Part shown: positions 10,501-19,500 of the stretch, in pieces | How the letters are laid out: every line of letters begins with the position of its first letter | How positions within the stretch are numbered: the stretch's first letter is position 1 | Source: Escherichia coli | GTDB lineage: Bacteria; Pseudomonadota; Gammaproteobacteria; Enterobacterales; Enterobacteriaceae | Strand: one strand, 5' to 3' | Assembly (NCBI RefSeq): GCF_030013205.1 | Contig: NZ_CP122648.1 | Length of the DNA: 64,000 nt | Position numbers: made by a program

Positions 10501-13500
10501 CCTTTCTGTTACGCGCACCGCCGATAAAGATTCAGCTAAAACTTTTGTTCAGGAAACTCTGAAAGATACCTGGGAGTCTGCTGACGAGTGGTTTGTTCAC
10601 TAATTAGCACGTAAAATCAGTAACGGCTGGAAATCATTCAATACTCGCACTATCGAAAGTTAACCAGCCAGCCGCAGTATCCTATCATGACAAGTTACTG
10701 CGGCTTTTTACTTTTTATATTTAACGGATCAACATCCAGATCAGCAGACACGCCACCACCGGCACAGCAAAATCCATCAGGCTTGCTACATCCCACGCGC
10801 GTAGATCAAAACCGCCCCACCACGGCATATTCATACGCTTGCCATGCCCGAACATTTCAATCCAGCGATATTCTGCCTGGGTGTGTTCCCGCGCAATGAA
10901 GAATGTACAACCGGCTATCGCCCCGTAAGCCCAGTTTCCGGTAAAAAGACCAACCAGTACCTGCGCAGCCACAGCACAAAGTGCATGAAGGAAAGGTGTT
11001 ATATCCATTTTCATCCCACCCAATAAAACGGGGCGCTCGGCCCCTTAATATTATTTAGACGCAAGCGCCGCCTCAATTGCAGATAATCTTTGTTTTAATT
11101 CTGCGTTTTCTTCTTCCAGTGCTGTTATTCTGTCGTCTGACTCTCTGGCTACCTGAACAAGCAAGCCAGTAATACCAGAATAATCTACTGTGTAATAACG
11201 TTCACCTTCTTCACCTTCCGATCCGCTTGCACCGTCCTGATATTTCACTGCGGAACCTACAACTTCTGGGATTGCTTCCAGAGCTTCCTGTGCAATGACA
11301 CCAGCATAGGGCATACCGTTTTCTTTAAGCGTGTATGTATAGCCGTTCATTTTACGGATGCGGTCGGTTGCATTATCGATCACCTGAATGTTGTCTTTCA
11401 GATCCCGGTCGGAATGCTGGTTAAATGCGGTGGCATGACATGCACCATTAACGCTTAACATATAGGTGTTATCGGTATTTTTCTGCGCATAGAACATATA
11501 AGCGCCACCATCAACACCGACTTCATAAACAACCGGACGGCTGGAGTTGCCCCACAATTTAGCAGTAACACCAGCATAAGCGGTTCCCTGTGTGTTTAAT
11601 GTCATGGTCGACCCGTGATTAGCATATTTGATCTGTAATGTGTCTGTATAATCAAATTTAATCAGGGCATTATCTACACGATCCCCATAGGACATGAGGC
11701 ACTTACCCATTTTCAAATAACCAGCAGTGCCAGGGAAAATTAAAGTTCCTCCGTAAAGATCACTAAAGTCCCAAAAGATACCTTTTGTCCCGTTATGTGT
11801 GACGATCCTCGTCATTGTATCTTTAGTACCATCAATATTTTTTCTGGTATATATGTCACTATAAGCGTTTTCCGTTTCACCAGTCTTATTTGACAAATGC
11901 AGCTTACCGCTGAATATAGTTCCAGTTGTTGGCAATGTTTTTTGATCATAGATTACATTGCAATAACCATTCCATGTTGTTTTATTGTCTACATAAGATT
12001 TTGTTGCGTAGCTTCCTTGATCGTTTTTTAATTTGCTAACGTCGGATTTTAGCGTTTTGATGTCATCAGGAATTACTGTCGATGTAGCCATTTTTCTTCC
12101 TCACATCCAGCCACGAAGTTGATGCTCAACAGCAACCACGTATTCATCGAATATTGACGGTGTTTTCACATCATTAATGATGCGCACGTTTACAAAATAT
12201 CCGTCTTCCTTAACACATACCGGTTCGCCATCTTCAGTCAGTTCTCCGGTTTCTTTGTACACGTTACCTATCACGTCAATAAGAATATCATCCTGCATCG
12301 ACTCATCATCATAATAGCCGATACTCTCCATAAAGGCCGAAAAGTCGGCCCTGTCGACAAATTTGAGTGTTAAATCTTTCATTAGATTAACTCCCCCACC
12401 TGAGCATCAGTCAATGCCTTGTGCCATATTCTGAAATTCCTGACATGACCAAATAAATGACGTAACCCGGCTGTAGTCTGGCCTCCAATACGGATAATTG
12501 CGGTGTTCTGAATATAAGACCATGTGGTTTTTGTTTCGCTGGATATACGCCCGTTACTTACTGAGCACGTAGACTGATCTGACTTTACACGCATCCCCAT
12601 AACCATTTTTTCAAGCGATGCGTTTTCGTTTACCAGTCTGTTAGCTCCTCCAATATCGCAATAAGGAAATCCGTCGTAATCTGCTGAAGAACCGAAGCCA
12701 AGAATAATAGCCGCTCCGGTTTGATGACCGCCGGTATCAAAAACACGCGGTGCTGCATTTGGTGTTTTATTCCAGTTTTTATGAGCCTCAACCAGAACTG
12801 TAAAAGGAAGACTATAAAGATTATTCTTAATTGGAACTGTAACCATATCGCTTGCGCGGGTGCTTGCAGTTGTATCAGTTACAATAAATGACGAAGCACT
12901 TGATCCACCTTCCACTTGTGGAGTTGCGATATCCAGATAGTCTCCAGATGCTGTGTCTGAACCTTTTACTGGAGCGTATTGAACCATCGCACCAATCATG
13001 CTCTCTGTATCTAGTGCAGTAATTGTAGCCTGATAGAAAATCCAACCAGTAGCCTCATCTTTTACAGCCTTTGCAATAATACGATTTGCTGCACCACCAG
13101 TTTTATCAATTACAAGTGTTGATAAATTGAGGTAAGCATCTCCCAAAAAAGTGTAAGTAGAACCATCATGATGTTCAAATCTTAAACGACACCTTATATT
13201 TTCAACATCACTTCTGACACGGCATGAAATGGTCACATATTTTTCATCACCTGTGACATCAAATCCTTTACTGCCAGAAACCGTTACGATACTAATCGCA
13301 CTTGTTTGACCAATAAGAGTATCTTTTACAGTAAATCTACCATAAGTAAAATTAAAAGAATCCGTGGATATTTCTGTGAGTTCCAGATTGCTTGACTTAT
13401 TCCATTTAGATGGATTTGTTGAATTAAGCAGAAGATTAGTTCTTTGCCCCTCAATAAGCAGGCCATCACGTTCAAATCGTGGCTCGTCAATGGCAGCCTC

Positions 13501-16500: not shown

Positions 16501-19500
16501 TCAACCAGGCTTATCAGCGTGGTGCCGGAGGATGGCAGCGTGATTTCACGGTCGAGCGTCAGCGTCCGGGTCTGGCTGTTCACCGCCAGCACGCGCCCGC
16601 CAATGCTGATCCCCGCATAGTCATCATCGCAGATTTCAATAACATCACCCGGTACATGGCGCAGCCCTTCTGCACCCACGCTGAAGTCCACGGTCTGCGT
16701 TTCCAGCAGTTCCGTTTTAATCAGCCACAGCCCGGCGCGGTGCGCCTGCCCCCGGCTGGTACAGCCAAAGGCATCCATTTTCGTGACGTTACGACCGTAA
16801 CGGGCAATGGCCTGCGTGTCCTCCACAAGCTCTGTTGCCGTTTCCCAGCCGTTATTCGGGTCAATCCAGTTCACCTCAACGGCATTATGGCGGTCCTTCA
16901 GGGCGCTGAAACTGTAGCGGAACGGCGCGCCATCATCCGGCATCACCACATTACTGCGGTTATAGGTCCACACCTTATCCGACGGCCGGTCCTGCACGAA
17001 CGTCAGCGTCTGCCCGTTCCATACCGGCATACAGCGCATCGCCGAGCAGAAATCACTGAGCACATCCCACGCCTTGCGCTGTGTGGTCAGGTACGCATTA
17101 CAGGTGATGCGCGGCTCCGTGCCACCAAAACCATCCGGCACCGACTGGTCGCAATACTGTCCGATGACATACAGCGCCCATTTGTCCACATCCGCCGCAC
17201 CAAGACGTTTCCCCATGCCGTAGCGCGGATGGGTCAGCATATCCCACAGACACCATGCCATGTTGTTGCTGTATGCCGGTTTAAACGTTCCGTCCCAGAT
17301 ACCGCTGTATTGCCGCCTCTGCGGGTTATAGTTCGACGGCACCTGCAGAATGCGCCCGCGAAGATGATAATTACGACTCACCTGCTGGCTGCCGAACTGT
17401 TCCGAGTCCACCTGCACGCCGACCAGTGCCGTGTTCGGGTAGCACTGTTTCACATCGATGATTTCGGTGTATGACGACCAGAGCGTTTTGTTCTGCAGCT
17501 GGTCTGTGGTGCTGTCCGGTGTCATCCTGCGCATCCGGATATTGAACGGGCGCGGAGGCAGATTATCCACCACCACCGAGGCCAGATACTGCGAGGTGGT
17601 TTTGCCCTTAATGGTGATGTCTTTTTCCGTCACCCAGCCACCGTTACGTTGTATCTGAACCAGCAGGCGAACTTCCGACGGATTCCGGTCCCCCTTTGAA
17701 GTGGTTTCCACCAGAGCCTGCACACCGAAGGTAAAGCGCAGACGGTCGATGTTTGCAGACGTGATGGTCCGGGTGATCGGCGTGTCATATTTCACTTCCG
17801 TACCCAGCACCGTCTCGGATCCGGAGGATTCAAAACCCTCCGGCGGTGTCTGCTCCTGCTCACCTGCCCGGAACACCACCGTGACACCGGCGATGTTGGT
17901 ATTCCCTTCACTGTCCAGCACCGGCGTACTGTTCAGCAGCACGCTTTTTAATCCATCCACCGGACCTTCTATCGGTCCTTCGCTGATGGCATCGATCACA
18001 CTCAGTAACTGCGTGGATTTCAGGTTGTCCTTCGCTTCGCGCGGGGTATGCCCCTTACTGCTGCCTTTACCCATTCGTCATGCTCCATAAACGACAAAAC
18101 CGCCCGCAGGCGGTTTCACATAAAACATTTTGCATCAGCGACCAATCACCACAACCTGACCACCATCCCCTTCGTCTGCCGTGCTGATCTCCTGAGAAAC
18201 CACCCGCGACCCCACACGCATTTCACCGTACAGAACAGGCAGAACATTGCCCTGAGCAACCATGTTATCCAGTGAGGAAAAATAGGTGTTCTGTTTGCCG
18301 TTATCTGTACTGGCTGCCGTGGACGTCCTGGCTTTCGGTGCCAGCATCTGCGCCACACCGCCCAGGATCATACTGGCCCCTGCCGCATACATGCCCGATA
18401 CAGCCGCGGCACCCAGCCAGCCCACAGGGTTCCACCATGCCACCGCAATCAACGCCGCCCCCAGCACCACCTGAAATACACCGCCACTTTTAGCTCCCGC
18501 CAGACGCGGCACGATATGGATCACGGCACCATTTGCCAGCGGCTCATTAAGACGGGCAGATAATTCGGTTTCACCTGCATCACGCCCGGCAATGCGCACC
18601 TGATACCAGCCGTCATTCAGTTTCTGACGAAACGCCGGGAGCTGTGTGGCCAGCGCCCGGATGGCTTCGGCCCCCGTTTTCACACGAAGGTCGATGCGGC
18701 GACCAAATCGTTGCAAATCCCCGTAAAGGCAGATGCGTGCCATGCCCGGTGACGCCAGAGGGAGTGTGTGCGTCGCTGCCATTTGTCGGTATACCTCTCT
18801 CGTTTGCTCAGTTGTTCAGGAATATGGTGCAGCAGCTCGCCGTCACCACAGTAAATGGCGGCATGATTCGGCACCGATGAACCAAAACAGCACAGCAGCA
18901 CATCGCCCGGCTGCGCCGCTGACAACGGCACCTGATACAGCCCTGTGGCCTCCAGATTATCCAGATAGAGATTCTGACCGTGACGCCACCAGTCATCCCC
19001 GCGATGAAAATCCGGCATCTCAATCCCCGCCAGATGATAAGCATCCCGGAACAGCGTGTAACAGTCCGTCACCCCGTGCTCAAAGCGCCGCCCGGTAAGA
19101 TGCGGCACACAGCGGAATTTATGAATCTCACCCCGGCAGACCAGCCACCACAGCAAATCACTCTGCACCTGCAGCCGCCGGTCGGCCTCACTCAGCCAGG
19201 GCAGACCACCGGGGTGGCTGTGGACCAGCGCCACAATCTCACCCTGCATCTCTGCCCGCAGCCAGTCCTCCGGCGACATCCGGAAATACGCCTCCGGCTC
19301 ACCGGAGATATTCACGCAGGGAAAATATCTTTCCCCCTCCGGCGTTCTCACCACGAAGCCGCACGACTCCGCTGGCGCACATCGCCGGGCGTGCGCCAGA
19401 ATCGCTGATTCTGTCTGTGTCATGGGATTACTGCGAAAGTTTGTTAATGGAAAGGAAGCCGCCAAAGTTGCCGACGTTATTGCGAAACTTACAACCACTC

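What the first reader, a model, noticed from the sequence alone, without database searches (positions are those of the whole stretch)
11051..18074. Receptor-binding module: divergent J C-terminus, N-terminally shortened Stf with expandable repeats, and a second S74-chaperone fibre
J matches lambda gpJ at the N-terminus but diverges at the C-terminus, which in lambda specifies LamB binding. The Stf-like ORF begins at a motif (MTEDD...PEALRR) that I recall as internal to lambda-type Stf, so the usual N-terminal region appears to be missing. It contains DNA-level tandem repeats (13800-14300) that could expand or contract by slippage. A second fibre gene carries a C-terminal autoproteolytic chaperone domain. 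This tail apparatus is retained in a prophage that lacks a head and might be repurposed.
Basis: partly seen in the sequence, partly recalled or inferred. Interest (0 to 1): 0.4.

Follow-up and report, generated by a model that had tools for sequence, protein, structure and literature searches.

The report
Decayed lambdoid prophage receptor-binding genes
This is the host-recognition end of a lambda-like prophage in an E. coli chromosome, a common and already annotated gene set that two strain-specific deletions have disabled, so it is ordinary prophage decay and not a repurposed tail machine.

Summary
The window is E. coli ETEC4079, with a lambdoid prophage integrated in dusA.

- **J (14595-18074, minus strand):** 97% identical to lambda gpJ over residues 1-818. 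Its last 146 residues are 44.5% identical to lambda's LamB-binding domain and 65.5% to the OmpC-using "A8" gpJ. The same allele, at 90% identity or more, occurs in 56 sequenced phage records.
- **Stf-like ORF:** truncated by an 897-bp deletion that removed lom and Stf codons 1-93. Those codons encode the collar domain that fixes lambda side fibres to the tail. The junction occurs in 1 of 5,426 complete E. coli genomes, and RefSeq already marks the gene as a pseudogene.
- **Repeats (13789-14223):** real, 189 bp x 2.3 copies at 83% identity, encoding the fibre's coiled-coil shaft. Rare relatives have one or three 63-residue units, or lack one heptad.
- **346-residue fibre:** carries an S74 chaperone domain with the Ser227/Lys232 pair.
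- **Cassette:** Stf distal domain, 93-residue protein and S74 fibre occur together in viable phages (PhiR46_1, PhiR11_1, 2G7b, JenP1).
- **Second deletion:** a private terminase-to-tape-measure deletion removed the head, portal, tail tube and three quarters of the tape measure. No virion or tailocin can form.

Low interest.

The parts
14595..18074 (-). gpJ central tail fibre / tip attachment protein, 1159 aa, intact ORF
   Evidence: 83% identical to lambda gpJ overall and 97.3% over residues 1-818. Six gpJ-specific Pfam domains pass their cut-offs. RefSeq names it gpJ.
14598..15035 (-). J receptor-binding domain (last 146 aa), a non-lambda allele
   Evidence: 44.5% identical to lambda's domain and 65.5% to the OmpC-using 'A8' gpJ of PDB 9wca/9wcb. 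At least 90% identical in 56 phage records, including VT1-Sakai, Stx2a phages, 2G7b and PhiR49_2.
14549..14576 (-). Intrinsic-terminator-like hairpin downstream of J
   Evidence: GGGCGTCAGAAATGACGCC followed by a T-run.
14468..14527 (-). lom remnant: lom start codon, 16 lom codons, then out-of-frame read into stf to a TGA (19-aa ORF)
   Evidence: Translation MRKLCAVILSAVVWLVDGR*. The intact 600-bp lom is present at this position in BEN5202, PhiR46_1 and 2G7b.
14479..14481 (.). Junction of the 897-bp deletion (lom 3' part plus stf codons 1-93), 2-bp CA microhomology
   Evidence: Direct comparison of the window with BEN5202 locus L002 6481-7378. A 100-bp probe across the junction is found whole in only 1 of 5,426 complete E. 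coli genomes.
12382..14481 (-). stf pseudogene: side tail fibre lacking its N-terminal collar domain (699 of 792 codons remain)
   Evidence: PF08400 is matched only at profile positions 93-131. The alignment with intact alleles shows residues 1-93 absent. RefSeq: 'incomplete; missing N-terminus'.
13789..14223 (-). Tandem repeat, 189 bp x 2.3 (sub-periods 42 and 21 bp), encoding the Ala/Ser/Thr-rich heptad coiled-coil shaft
   Evidence: Tandem Repeats Finder score 597, 83% matches. Homologous to the lambda Stf proximal coiled coil (PMC12617516). Natural variants have 1 or 3 units, or lack 7 aa.
12385..13698 (-). Stf distal receptor-binding region (438 aa): GTA-spike-fibre-like domain plus concanavalin-A/LamG-like lectin fold
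12101..12382 (-). 93-aa protein of unknown function that always accompanies the two fibres (candidate adaptor or assembly factor)
   Evidence: Full-length match to phrog_1361 (E 1.3e-45). No Pfam, NCBIfam or PADLOC hit. 47% identical to JenP1 gp24 in the same position.
11051..12091 (-). Short lateral fibre, 346 aa, with a C-terminal S74 intramolecular chaperone (residues 227-346; predicted cleavage at Ser227)
   Evidence: PF13884 (E 5.8e-14). Full-length match to phrog_4563. Aligns to the phage S16 long-tail-fibre chaperone region, PDB 6f45. Ser227/Lys232 conserved. 71-92% identical in PhiR11_1, Tritos, 2G7b, JenP1 and PhiR46_1.
11030..11044 (.). GC-rich hairpin, terminator-like on both strands, ending the fibre transcription unit
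10721..11008 (-). 95-aa predicted membrane protein that follows the cassette in lambdoid phages (function unknown)
   Evidence: Full-length match to phrog_1443 (E 2.9e-57). A gene of the same size sits in the same position in PhiR46_1, PhiR11_1 and 2G7b.
20465..21223 (-). Tape-measure (H) remnant: C-terminal 253 of about 1018 codons
   Evidence: RefSeq pseudogene, 'missing N-terminus'. Homology to BEN5202 ends at window position 21217.
21288..22079 (-). Terminase large-subunit remnant (N-terminal part only); the other side of the head/tail-shaft deletion
   Evidence: RefSeq pseudogene, 'missing C-terminus'. A probe across this junction is found whole in 1 of 5,426 genomes.

Best explanation
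The region is the distal, host-recognition end of the late operon of a lambda-like prophage integrated in dusA, caught in an early stage of decay.

In the intact phage, as seen at the same site in strain BEN5202 and in isolated phages, the operon encodes three things:
(i) gpJ, whose C-terminal domain binds an outer-membrane porin for irreversible adsorption. For this allele the porin is probably OmpC and not LamB.
(ii) Lom.
(iii) A lateral-fibre set. Stf has an N-terminal collar domain that clamps onto the tube/tip junction, a heptad-repeat coiled-coil shaft, and a lectin-like distal domain that probably binds a surface glycan. It is followed by a 93-aa accessory protein and a short second fibre that folds with, and then cleaves off, its own S74 chaperone.

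In this strain two illegitimate deletions have disabled the phage. One (897 bp, 2-bp microhomology) removed lom and the Stf collar domain together with the stf start codon and ribosome-binding site. The other fused the terminase gene to the last quarter of the tape-measure gene, removing all head, portal and tail-shaft genes. What remains (M, L, K, I, J, the stf fragment, the 93-aa gene and the S74 fibre) cannot form a particle. Its only plausible biological role is as recombination material for incoming lambdoid phages.

The repeats are the ordinary shaft of the fibre. Unequal recombination occasionally adds or removes a 63-residue unit (9 heptads) or a single heptad, which keeps the coiled-coil register.

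Shown here: gene identities, both deletions and their uniqueness, the domain boundaries, the repeat variants, and the presence of the cassette in viable phages.
Inferred: OmpC as the receptor, glycan binding by the Stf distal domain, the role of the 93-aa protein, and how the second fibre attaches.
For: - Source and context: 100% match to ETEC4079; the prophage lies between int at dusA and a dusA 5' remnant.
- Intact sister prophage at the same site, 99.4-99.8% identical from int to the tape measure, with lom and a 792-aa Stf.
- Deletion breakpoints read directly from the sequence.
- Both junctions are unique to one genome of 5,426.
- PF08400 is truncated at profile position 93.
- The cryo-EM study of Ur-lambda shows Stf residues 1-91 form the dodecameric collar at the gpV/gpM junction, 92-101 are a linker and 102-393 are the proximal coiled coil (PMC12617516). 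The Stf N-terminus here matches lambda's at 93 of 111 aligned columns.
- J segment identities, and a closer match to the OmpC-using A8 gpJ than to lambda (PMC11338833).
- The J receptor-binding allele is common in sequenced phages.
- The same cassette order is found in PhiR46_1, PhiR11_1, 2G7b and JenP1.
- All four proteins match PHROG families end to end.
- Lectin-like fold of the Stf distal region.
- Repeat-number variants in relatives.
- Lambda acquires DNA, including stf-tfa regions, from defective prophages by recombination (PMC3945230).
Against: - No expression or adsorption data exist for this locus.
- The receptor of this J allele has not been determined. 65.5% identity to A8 in the binding domain does not guarantee the same porin.
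- The head module of the window prophage differs from that of BEN5202 (terminase remnant only 73% identical). BEN5202 is therefore a sister and not the direct ancestor, and the size of the second deletion is inferred.
- The first in-frame ATG of the stf fragment lies 4 nt after the stop of the 19-aa lom remnant. Some translation of a collar-less fibre by re-initiation cannot be excluded.
Confidence: 0.9

Rival explanations
1. The tail-tip and fibre genes are kept because the defective prophage has been domesticated as a tailocin-like or adhesin-like device that kills or binds competitor cells after induction.
For: J, M, L, K, I, the 93-aa gene and the S74 fibre are intact ORFs. The antiterminator Q, holins and an endolysin are also intact, so induction could express them and release them by lysis.
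Against: - The tail tube V, terminator U, Z, chaperones G/T and about 75% of the tape measure H are deleted. Lambda-type tails cannot polymerise without them, and siphovirus-type tailocins (F-type pyocins) need a tube.
- The side fibre has lost the domain that attaches it to a tail.
- Both deletion junctions are private to one genome of 5,426, which fits recent neutral decay and gives no sign of a selected architecture.
Confidence: 0.02
2. The N-terminally shortened Stf is a functional free receptor-binding protein (for example a soluble lectin, decoy or exclusion factor) translated by coupling to the lom remnant.
For: The lom ribosome-binding site and start codon survive. The 19-aa remnant ORF stops at 14470-14468, and the first in-frame stf ATG (14463) follows 4 nt later. 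The remaining 693 codons are uninterrupted and include the whole coiled coil and the lectin-like domain.
Against: - An uninterrupted frame is expected shortly after a deletion, and the junction is found in a single genome.
- No promoter-like site lies between J and the fragment, and a terminator-like hairpin follows J, so expression would need Q-antiterminated late transcription, that is, during lysis.
- No precedent was found in the papers searched.
Confidence: 0.04
3. The tandem repeats are a contingency locus: copy number changes quickly by slippage to alter fibre length and host range.
For: The DNA-level repeat has nested 21, 42 and 189-bp periods. Natural alleles have 1, 2 or 3 copies of the 63-aa unit, or lack one heptad. 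More distant stf alleles differ by 84 or 315 bp, both multiples of 21.
Against: - Copies are only 83% identical, which is poor substrate for slippage.
- About 108 of the 120 best clusters are 790-793 aa, and the largest clusters (4,554 and 1,268 member sequences) have two units.
- Of the 12 sampled E. coli records that matched at least 85% of the N-terminal/repeat probe, 11 did so in a single piece whose record span equals the query span, so with no length change.
- The repeats lie in the shaft, away from the receptor-binding domain.
Confidence: 0.05

Closest known systems
Bacteriophage lambda (Ur-lambda) J-lom-stf-tfa host-recognition region
   Same: Same gene order in the intact relatives (J, lom, stf). 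J is 97% identical over residues 1-818. The Stf collar domain and linker match lambda's at 93 of 111 aligned columns, and a homologous Ala/Ser/Thr-rich coiled-coil shaft follows.
   Different: The J receptor-binding domain is only 44.5% identical. The Stf distal half is unrelated to lambda's gp37-like tip and is a lectin-like fold. There is no Tfa chaperone; a 93-aa protein and an S74 self-chaperoning short fibre take that position. In the window, lom and the collar are deleted.
OmpC-using gpJ variants ('A8' chimera, PDB 9wca/9wcb; Brödel et al. 2024, PMC11338833)
   Same: The last 146 residues are 65.5% identical to A8, against 44.5% to lambda. A8 itself is 44.4% identical to lambda, so the window allele and A8 group together.
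   Different: It is a separate allele class. A group of phage records at about 60-66% identity to the window allele is distinct from the group at 90% or more. The receptor of the window allele has not been tested.
Lateral tail fibre cassette of lambdoid phages PhiR46_1, PhiR11_1 and 2G7b and of Nonagvirus JenP1 (gp23-gp25)
   Same: Same three genes in the same order and of the same sizes. The S74 fibre is 71-92% identical. The Stf distal domain is about 75% identical to that of JenP1 gp23 (my count from the alignment). The 93-aa protein is 47% identical to JenP1 gp24.
   Different: Those phages are viable and carry a complete first fibre. JenP1 uses a different, non-lambda N-terminal anchor and a shorter shaft.
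S74 intramolecular-chaperone fibres (K1F endosialidase, T5 pb1, S16 gp37; Pfam PF13884)
   Same: A C-terminal domain with the conserved Ser-x4-Lys pair at the predicted cleavage site (HS227DRDLK232) and a terminal coiled coil.
   Different: Much shorter: the mature part would be about 226 aa. It is encoded as a separate second gene after a larger fibre. The attachment partner is unknown, and the monomer structure prediction was unusable (pLDDT 52).
Defective lambdoid prophages of E. coli (Rac, Qin, DLP12; the O157 Sakai defective prophage pool)
   Same: Partial late operons with tail-fibre genes left in the chromosome; documented donors of stf-region DNA to infecting lambda (PMC3945230).
   Different: This one is much younger. 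It is more than 99% identical to an intact sister prophage over the region they share, and both deletions are private to one genome.

Membership tests
Lambda gpJ tip attachment protein / central tail fibre | Full set of gpJ domains (FNIII-A, Phage-tail_3, two Ig-like domains, tail-tip fibre, C-terminal receptor-binding domain) in lambda order | tested here: met
   Six gpJ Pfam families pass their curated cut-offs, with E-values from 1e-32 to 1e-43. 83% identity to lambda gpJ over the full length.
Lambda gpJ tip attachment protein / central tail fibre | LamB-specific receptor-binding domain | tested here: not met
   The last 146 aa are 44.5% identical to lambda and nearer (65.5%) to the OmpC-using A8 gpJ. 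The actual receptor was not tested.
Lambda-type side tail fibre (Stf) | N-terminal collar domain (PF08400; lambda residues 1-91) that binds the gpV/gpM junction | tested here: not met
   The window ORF matches only profile positions 93-131 of 134, while the intact allele matches 2-131. Residues 1-93 are deleted. The role of the domain is taken from PMC12617516.
Lambda-type side tail fibre (Stf) | Proximal trimeric coiled-coil shaft homologous to lambda residues 102-393 | tested here: met
   59% identity to lambda Stf over 341 aligned residues, with the same AAKTSETNA-type repeats.
Lambda-type side tail fibre (Stf) | gp37-like distal tip assembled with a Tfa chaperone | tested here: not met
   The distal 438 aa have no similarity to lambda orf-401 or orf-314. 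They contain the NF048003 domain and a lectin-like fold. No tfa gene follows stf.
Peptidase S74 intramolecular-chaperone tail fibres | C-terminal PF13884 domain above the gathering score | tested here: met
   52.6 bits against a cut-off of 22, E 5.8e-14, residues 227-278.
Peptidase S74 intramolecular-chaperone tail fibres | Conserved Ser/Lys catalytic pair at the cleavage site | tested here: met
   Ser227 and Lys232 are nearly invariant in 19 homologues and align with SSDRRIK of S16 gp37, PDB 6f45.
Peptidase S74 intramolecular-chaperone tail fibres | Autoproteolytic release of the chaperone after trimerisation | not testable with these tools
   Needs protein expression and mass spectrometry or SDS-PAGE.
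Phage-tail-like bacteriocin (F-type / siphovirus-type tailocin) | Complete tail-assembly gene set (tube, tape measure, tail chaperones, terminator, tip) without head genes | tested here: not met
   V, U, Z, G and T are absent, and H is reduced to 253 of about 1018 codons.
dusA-integrating prophages | Tyrosine integrase next to dusA, with a dusA 5' fragment at the far end | tested here: met
   int at 9196-10293 lies next to dusA at 8070-9107. A dusA remnant is annotated at about 41708-41812. The same site is occupied in BEN5202.

The most novel reading that the evidence does not exclude
The uncharacterised three-gene lateral-fibre cassette (a large fibre with a lectin-like tip, a 93-aa protein and a short S74 fibre) might build a branched or two-stage fibre, with the 93-aa protein docking the conserved N-terminus of the short fibre (MATxTVIPxDIxTLKSDV) onto the large fibre. 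In this strain the collar-less Stf could then still be made by re-initiation after the lom remnant and assemble with the short fibre into a free, tail-independent bivalent adhesin released at lysis.
Probability: 0.03. Interest if true: 0.5.

Novelty: already known. Interest (0 to 1): 0.1.

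Why it matters
It matters little as a discovery. Every protein here has end-to-end matches in existing phage protein families. Proteins more than 90% identical to the S74 fibre and to the intact Stf form clusters of hundreds to thousands of E. coli sequences. RefSeq already flags the truncations.

Three modest points of value remain:
1. The window is a clean, datable example of the first steps of prophage decay: two private microhomology-type deletions in an otherwise more than 99% conserved element.
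2. The J allele belongs to a common, experimentally unassigned receptor-binding class that includes VT1-Sakai and many long-tailed Stx2a phages. Its grouping with the OmpC-binding A8 domain gives a testable receptor prediction.
3. The cassette of Stf distal domain, 93-aa protein and S74 fibre is shared between temperate lambdoid phages and virulent Nonagvirus phages. Nobody appears to have shown how its two fibres assemble.

Tried and rejected
- **Structure of the S74 fibre.** AlphaFold2 on a monomer with a 19-sequence alignment gave pLDDT 52 and pTM 0.23. That is unusable, so I ran no fold search on it; an intertwined trimer would probably need a multimer prediction.
- **PADLOC scan** of the 93-aa and 95-aa proteins and of neighbouring accessory genes: no defence-system match.
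- **Pfam and NCBIfam on the 93-aa and 95-aa proteins:** no family.
- **Literature search** for the paper describing the PhiR (ECOR) phages and for receptor data on this J allele: nothing found. The EHEC phage phi330 paper shows that an OmpC-using long-tailed phage exists, but I did not have its sequence to compare.
- **In-frame lom-stf fusion.** Considered because 897 is a multiple of 3, and rejected: lom and stf are in different frames, and the lom remnant stops after 19 codons.
- **BEN5202 as the direct ancestor.** Rejected: its terminase is only 73% identical to the window's remnant, and the lysis and accessory regions differ.
- **Technical notes.** The first PADLOC call failed because the window has one extra A at about 26750 relative to RefSeq. 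Searches failed because several loci are stored together in one file.

Full report
**Source and context.** Over the finding's interval the window is 100% identical to the chromosome of Escherichia coli ETEC4079 (NZ_CP122643.1, pig faeces, Belgium). Over the first 50 kb it differs from that record only by one extra A in a homopolymer near 26750, far from the finding. The finding lies inside a lambdoid prophage integrated in dusA. A tyrosine integrase (9196-10293) abuts dusA (8070-9107), and a dusA 5' remnant marks the far end near 41708-41812. All genes of the finding are on the minus strand and form the 3' end of the phage late operon.

**Check of the observations.** All four hold.
- J (14595-18074, 1159 aa) carries six gpJ-specific Pfam domains, including the C-terminal receptor-binding domain PF12421.
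- Identity of J to lambda gpJ: 97.3% over residues 1-818; 45.8% with a 28-residue insertion over 819-870; 65.7% over 871-1013; 44.5% over the last 146 residues.
- The Stf-like ORF (12382-14481) matches the prophage tail-fibre N-terminal family PF08400 only from profile position 93 of 134.
- Tandem Repeats Finder reports a 189-bp unit in 2.3 copies at 13789-14223, with 83% matches, score 597 and nested 42- and 21-bp periods.
- The 346-aa ORF (11051-12091) has a Peptidase_S74 chaperone domain (E 5.8e-14). Ser227 and Lys232 are conserved in the motif HSDRDLK.

**Why Stf is short.** Strain BEN5202 carries a sister prophage at the same dusA site. It is 99.4-99.8% identical from the integrase to the tape-measure gene. 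There, J is followed by a 600-bp lom gene and a 792-aa Stf whose first 131 residues match PF08400 completely.

Reading the two sequences side by side shows a clean 897-bp deletion in the window with a 2-bp (CA) microhomology at the junction (window 14479-14481). It removed all but the first 16 codons of lom, the lom-stf spacer with the stf ribosome-binding site and start codon, and Stf codons 1-93. The TTG "start" found by the ORF list is an artefact of the junction, because the codon is an internal ATG (Met94) in the intact gene.

The lom remnant reads out of frame into stf and stops after 19 codons. A 100-bp probe across the junction is found whole in only one of 5,426 complete E. coli genomes, ETEC4079 itself. 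RefSeq already annotates the gene as a pseudogene, "incomplete; missing N-terminus".

**What the lost piece does.** The cryo-EM study of Ur-lambda (PMC12617516) shows the following for Stf:
- Residues 1-91 form a beta-sheet collar domain. Twelve copies encircle the junction of the tube protein gpV and the distal tail protein gpM.
- Residues 92-101 are a flexible linker.
- Residues 102-393 are the proximal coiled coil.

The Stf N-terminus of this phage family matches lambda's at 93 of 111 aligned columns. The deletion therefore removed exactly the anchoring domain. Even if the remaining 693-699 codons were translated, the product could not attach to a tail.

**The repeats.** The repeats encode the Ala/Ser/Thr-rich heptad shaft (…AAKTSETNAKSSQT…), which is homologous to the lambda shaft. 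Among the 120 best full-coverage homologues of the intact protein, all carry the N-terminal domain and about 108 are 790-793 aa long. These include the clusters with 4,554 and 1,268 member sequences.

The exceptions are informative:
- Three clusters of 854 aa have exactly one extra 63-residue unit.
- One cluster of 726 aa lacks one unit.
- Two clusters of 785 aa, and phage PhiR11_1, lack one heptad.

So the repeat does expand and contract, in steps that keep the heptad register, but rarely. With copies only 83% identical, occasional unequal recombination explains this better than slippage-driven switching. Of the 12 sampled genomes that matched at least 85% of the N-terminal/repeat probe, 11 showed no length change.

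**The J C-terminus.**
- The receptor-binding domain is a common allele. It is at least 90% identical in 56 phage records, including VT1-Sakai, the PPompW prophages, many Stx2a phages, and the isolated phages 2G7b, PhiR49_2 and PhiR55_1.
- Among solved structures its best match is "A8 gpJ" (PDB 9wca/9wcb, E 1e-104), ahead of lambda J.
- A8 is the natural gpJ C-terminus that Brödel et al. grafted onto lambda to switch the receptor from LamB to OmpC (PMC11338833).
- Over the last 146 residues the window allele is 65.5% identical to A8 and 44.5% to lambda; A8 is 44.4% identical to lambda.

I infer OmpC as the likeliest receptor, with moderate confidence only, because the window allele and the A8-like alleles form separate identity classes.

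The short fibre would mature to about 226 residues after self-cleavage at Ser227. Its monomer model was unusable.

The three genes (large-fibre distal domain, 93-aa protein, S74 fibre) travel together:
- The same order and sizes occur in lambdoid phages PhiR46_1, PhiR11_1 and 2G7b and in the virulent Nonagvirus JenP1 (gp23-25).
- The large-fibre distal domain is about 75% identical to that of JenP1 gp23, by my count from the alignment.
- The 93-aa protein is 47% identical to JenP1 gp24.
- GC content falls from 58% in the J N-terminus to about 41% across the cassette.

All four proteins match PHROG families end to end. How the second fibre attaches, and what the 93-aa protein does, are unknown.

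**"Tail retained in a headless prophage".** This reading fails.
- A second deletion fuses the N-terminal 264 codons of the large terminase (21288-22079) to the last 253 of about 1018 codons of the tape measure (20465-21223).
- In BEN5202 the portal, protease-capsid fusion, head-completion genes, Z, U, V, G, T and the tape-measure gene all lie between the full terminase gene and gene M.
- This junction is also unique to ETEC4079.
- Only the tip genes M, L, K, I and J remain. With no tube, chaperones or full tape measure there can be no tail and no tailocin.
- A terminator-like hairpin follows J, and no promoter-like site precedes the stf fragment. These genes would be transcribed only by Q-antiterminated late transcription.

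**Conclusion.** The region is a standard, widely distributed lambdoid host-recognition module in the first stages of decay. The most plausible residual role is as a reservoir of J and fibre alleles for recombination with incoming lambdoid phages, a process shown experimentally for lambda and the defective prophages Rac, Qin and DLP12 (PMC3945230). Nothing here departs from known biology. The open points are the unassigned receptor of this common J allele and the unstudied assembly of the two-fibre cassette. Both are properties of the phage family, not of this locus.

Noticed in passing
window 26743-26750: The window has one more A in a homopolymer (A8 against A7) than RefSeq NZ_CP122643.1. This lengthens the DUF6731 ORF to 26716-27657 (313 aa against 261 aa annotated) and shifts all downstream coordinates by +1 relative to the record.
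   Followed up: partly
window 25693-28104: A low-GC island (35-39%) lies between the antiterminator Q gene and the lysis genes. It holds an AraC-family regulator (25693-26544, minus strand), a DUF6731 protein and a 147-aa ORF, and is absent from the sister prophage in BEN5202. It looks like an accessory or possible defence insert, but had no PADLOC hit.
   Followed up: partly
window 40467-41455: A Panacea-domain protein (40883-41455, minus strand) and an adjacent 139-aa ORF sit next to the right prophage end. This is probably a PanA-type toxin-antitoxin pair. It is conserved in BEN5202 and had no PADLOC hit.
   Followed up: partly
window 23058-23633: An Ais-like LPS core heptose(II)-phosphate phosphatase gene is encoded on the opposite strand between the packaging-gene remnants and the lysis genes. 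It looks like a lysogenic-conversion gene that could alter the LPS core.
   Followed up: no
window 25201-25275: A tRNA-Gly gene is annotated inside the prophage late region.
   Followed up: no
window 21310-28440 versus L004: The packaging, lysis and accessory modules of this prophage are unrelated or only 73% identical to those of the BEN5202 sister prophage, although both flanks are 97-99.8% identical. This is typical lambdoid mosaicism at a single integration site.
   Followed up: partly
window 10600-10680: A short capsid-protein pseudogene fragment lies between the DinI-like gene and the 95-aa membrane-protein gene. It is present in both ETEC4079 and BEN5202, so it is an older scar.
   Followed up: no
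window 12385-13698, 12101-12382 and 11051-12091; L008 5842-9293: The lateral-fibre cassette is shared between temperate lambdoid phages and the virulent Nonagvirus JenP1, with about 75% protein identity in the large fibre's distal domain (my count from the alignment). This is an example of exchange between temperate and virulent phages at fibre genes.
   Followed up: partly
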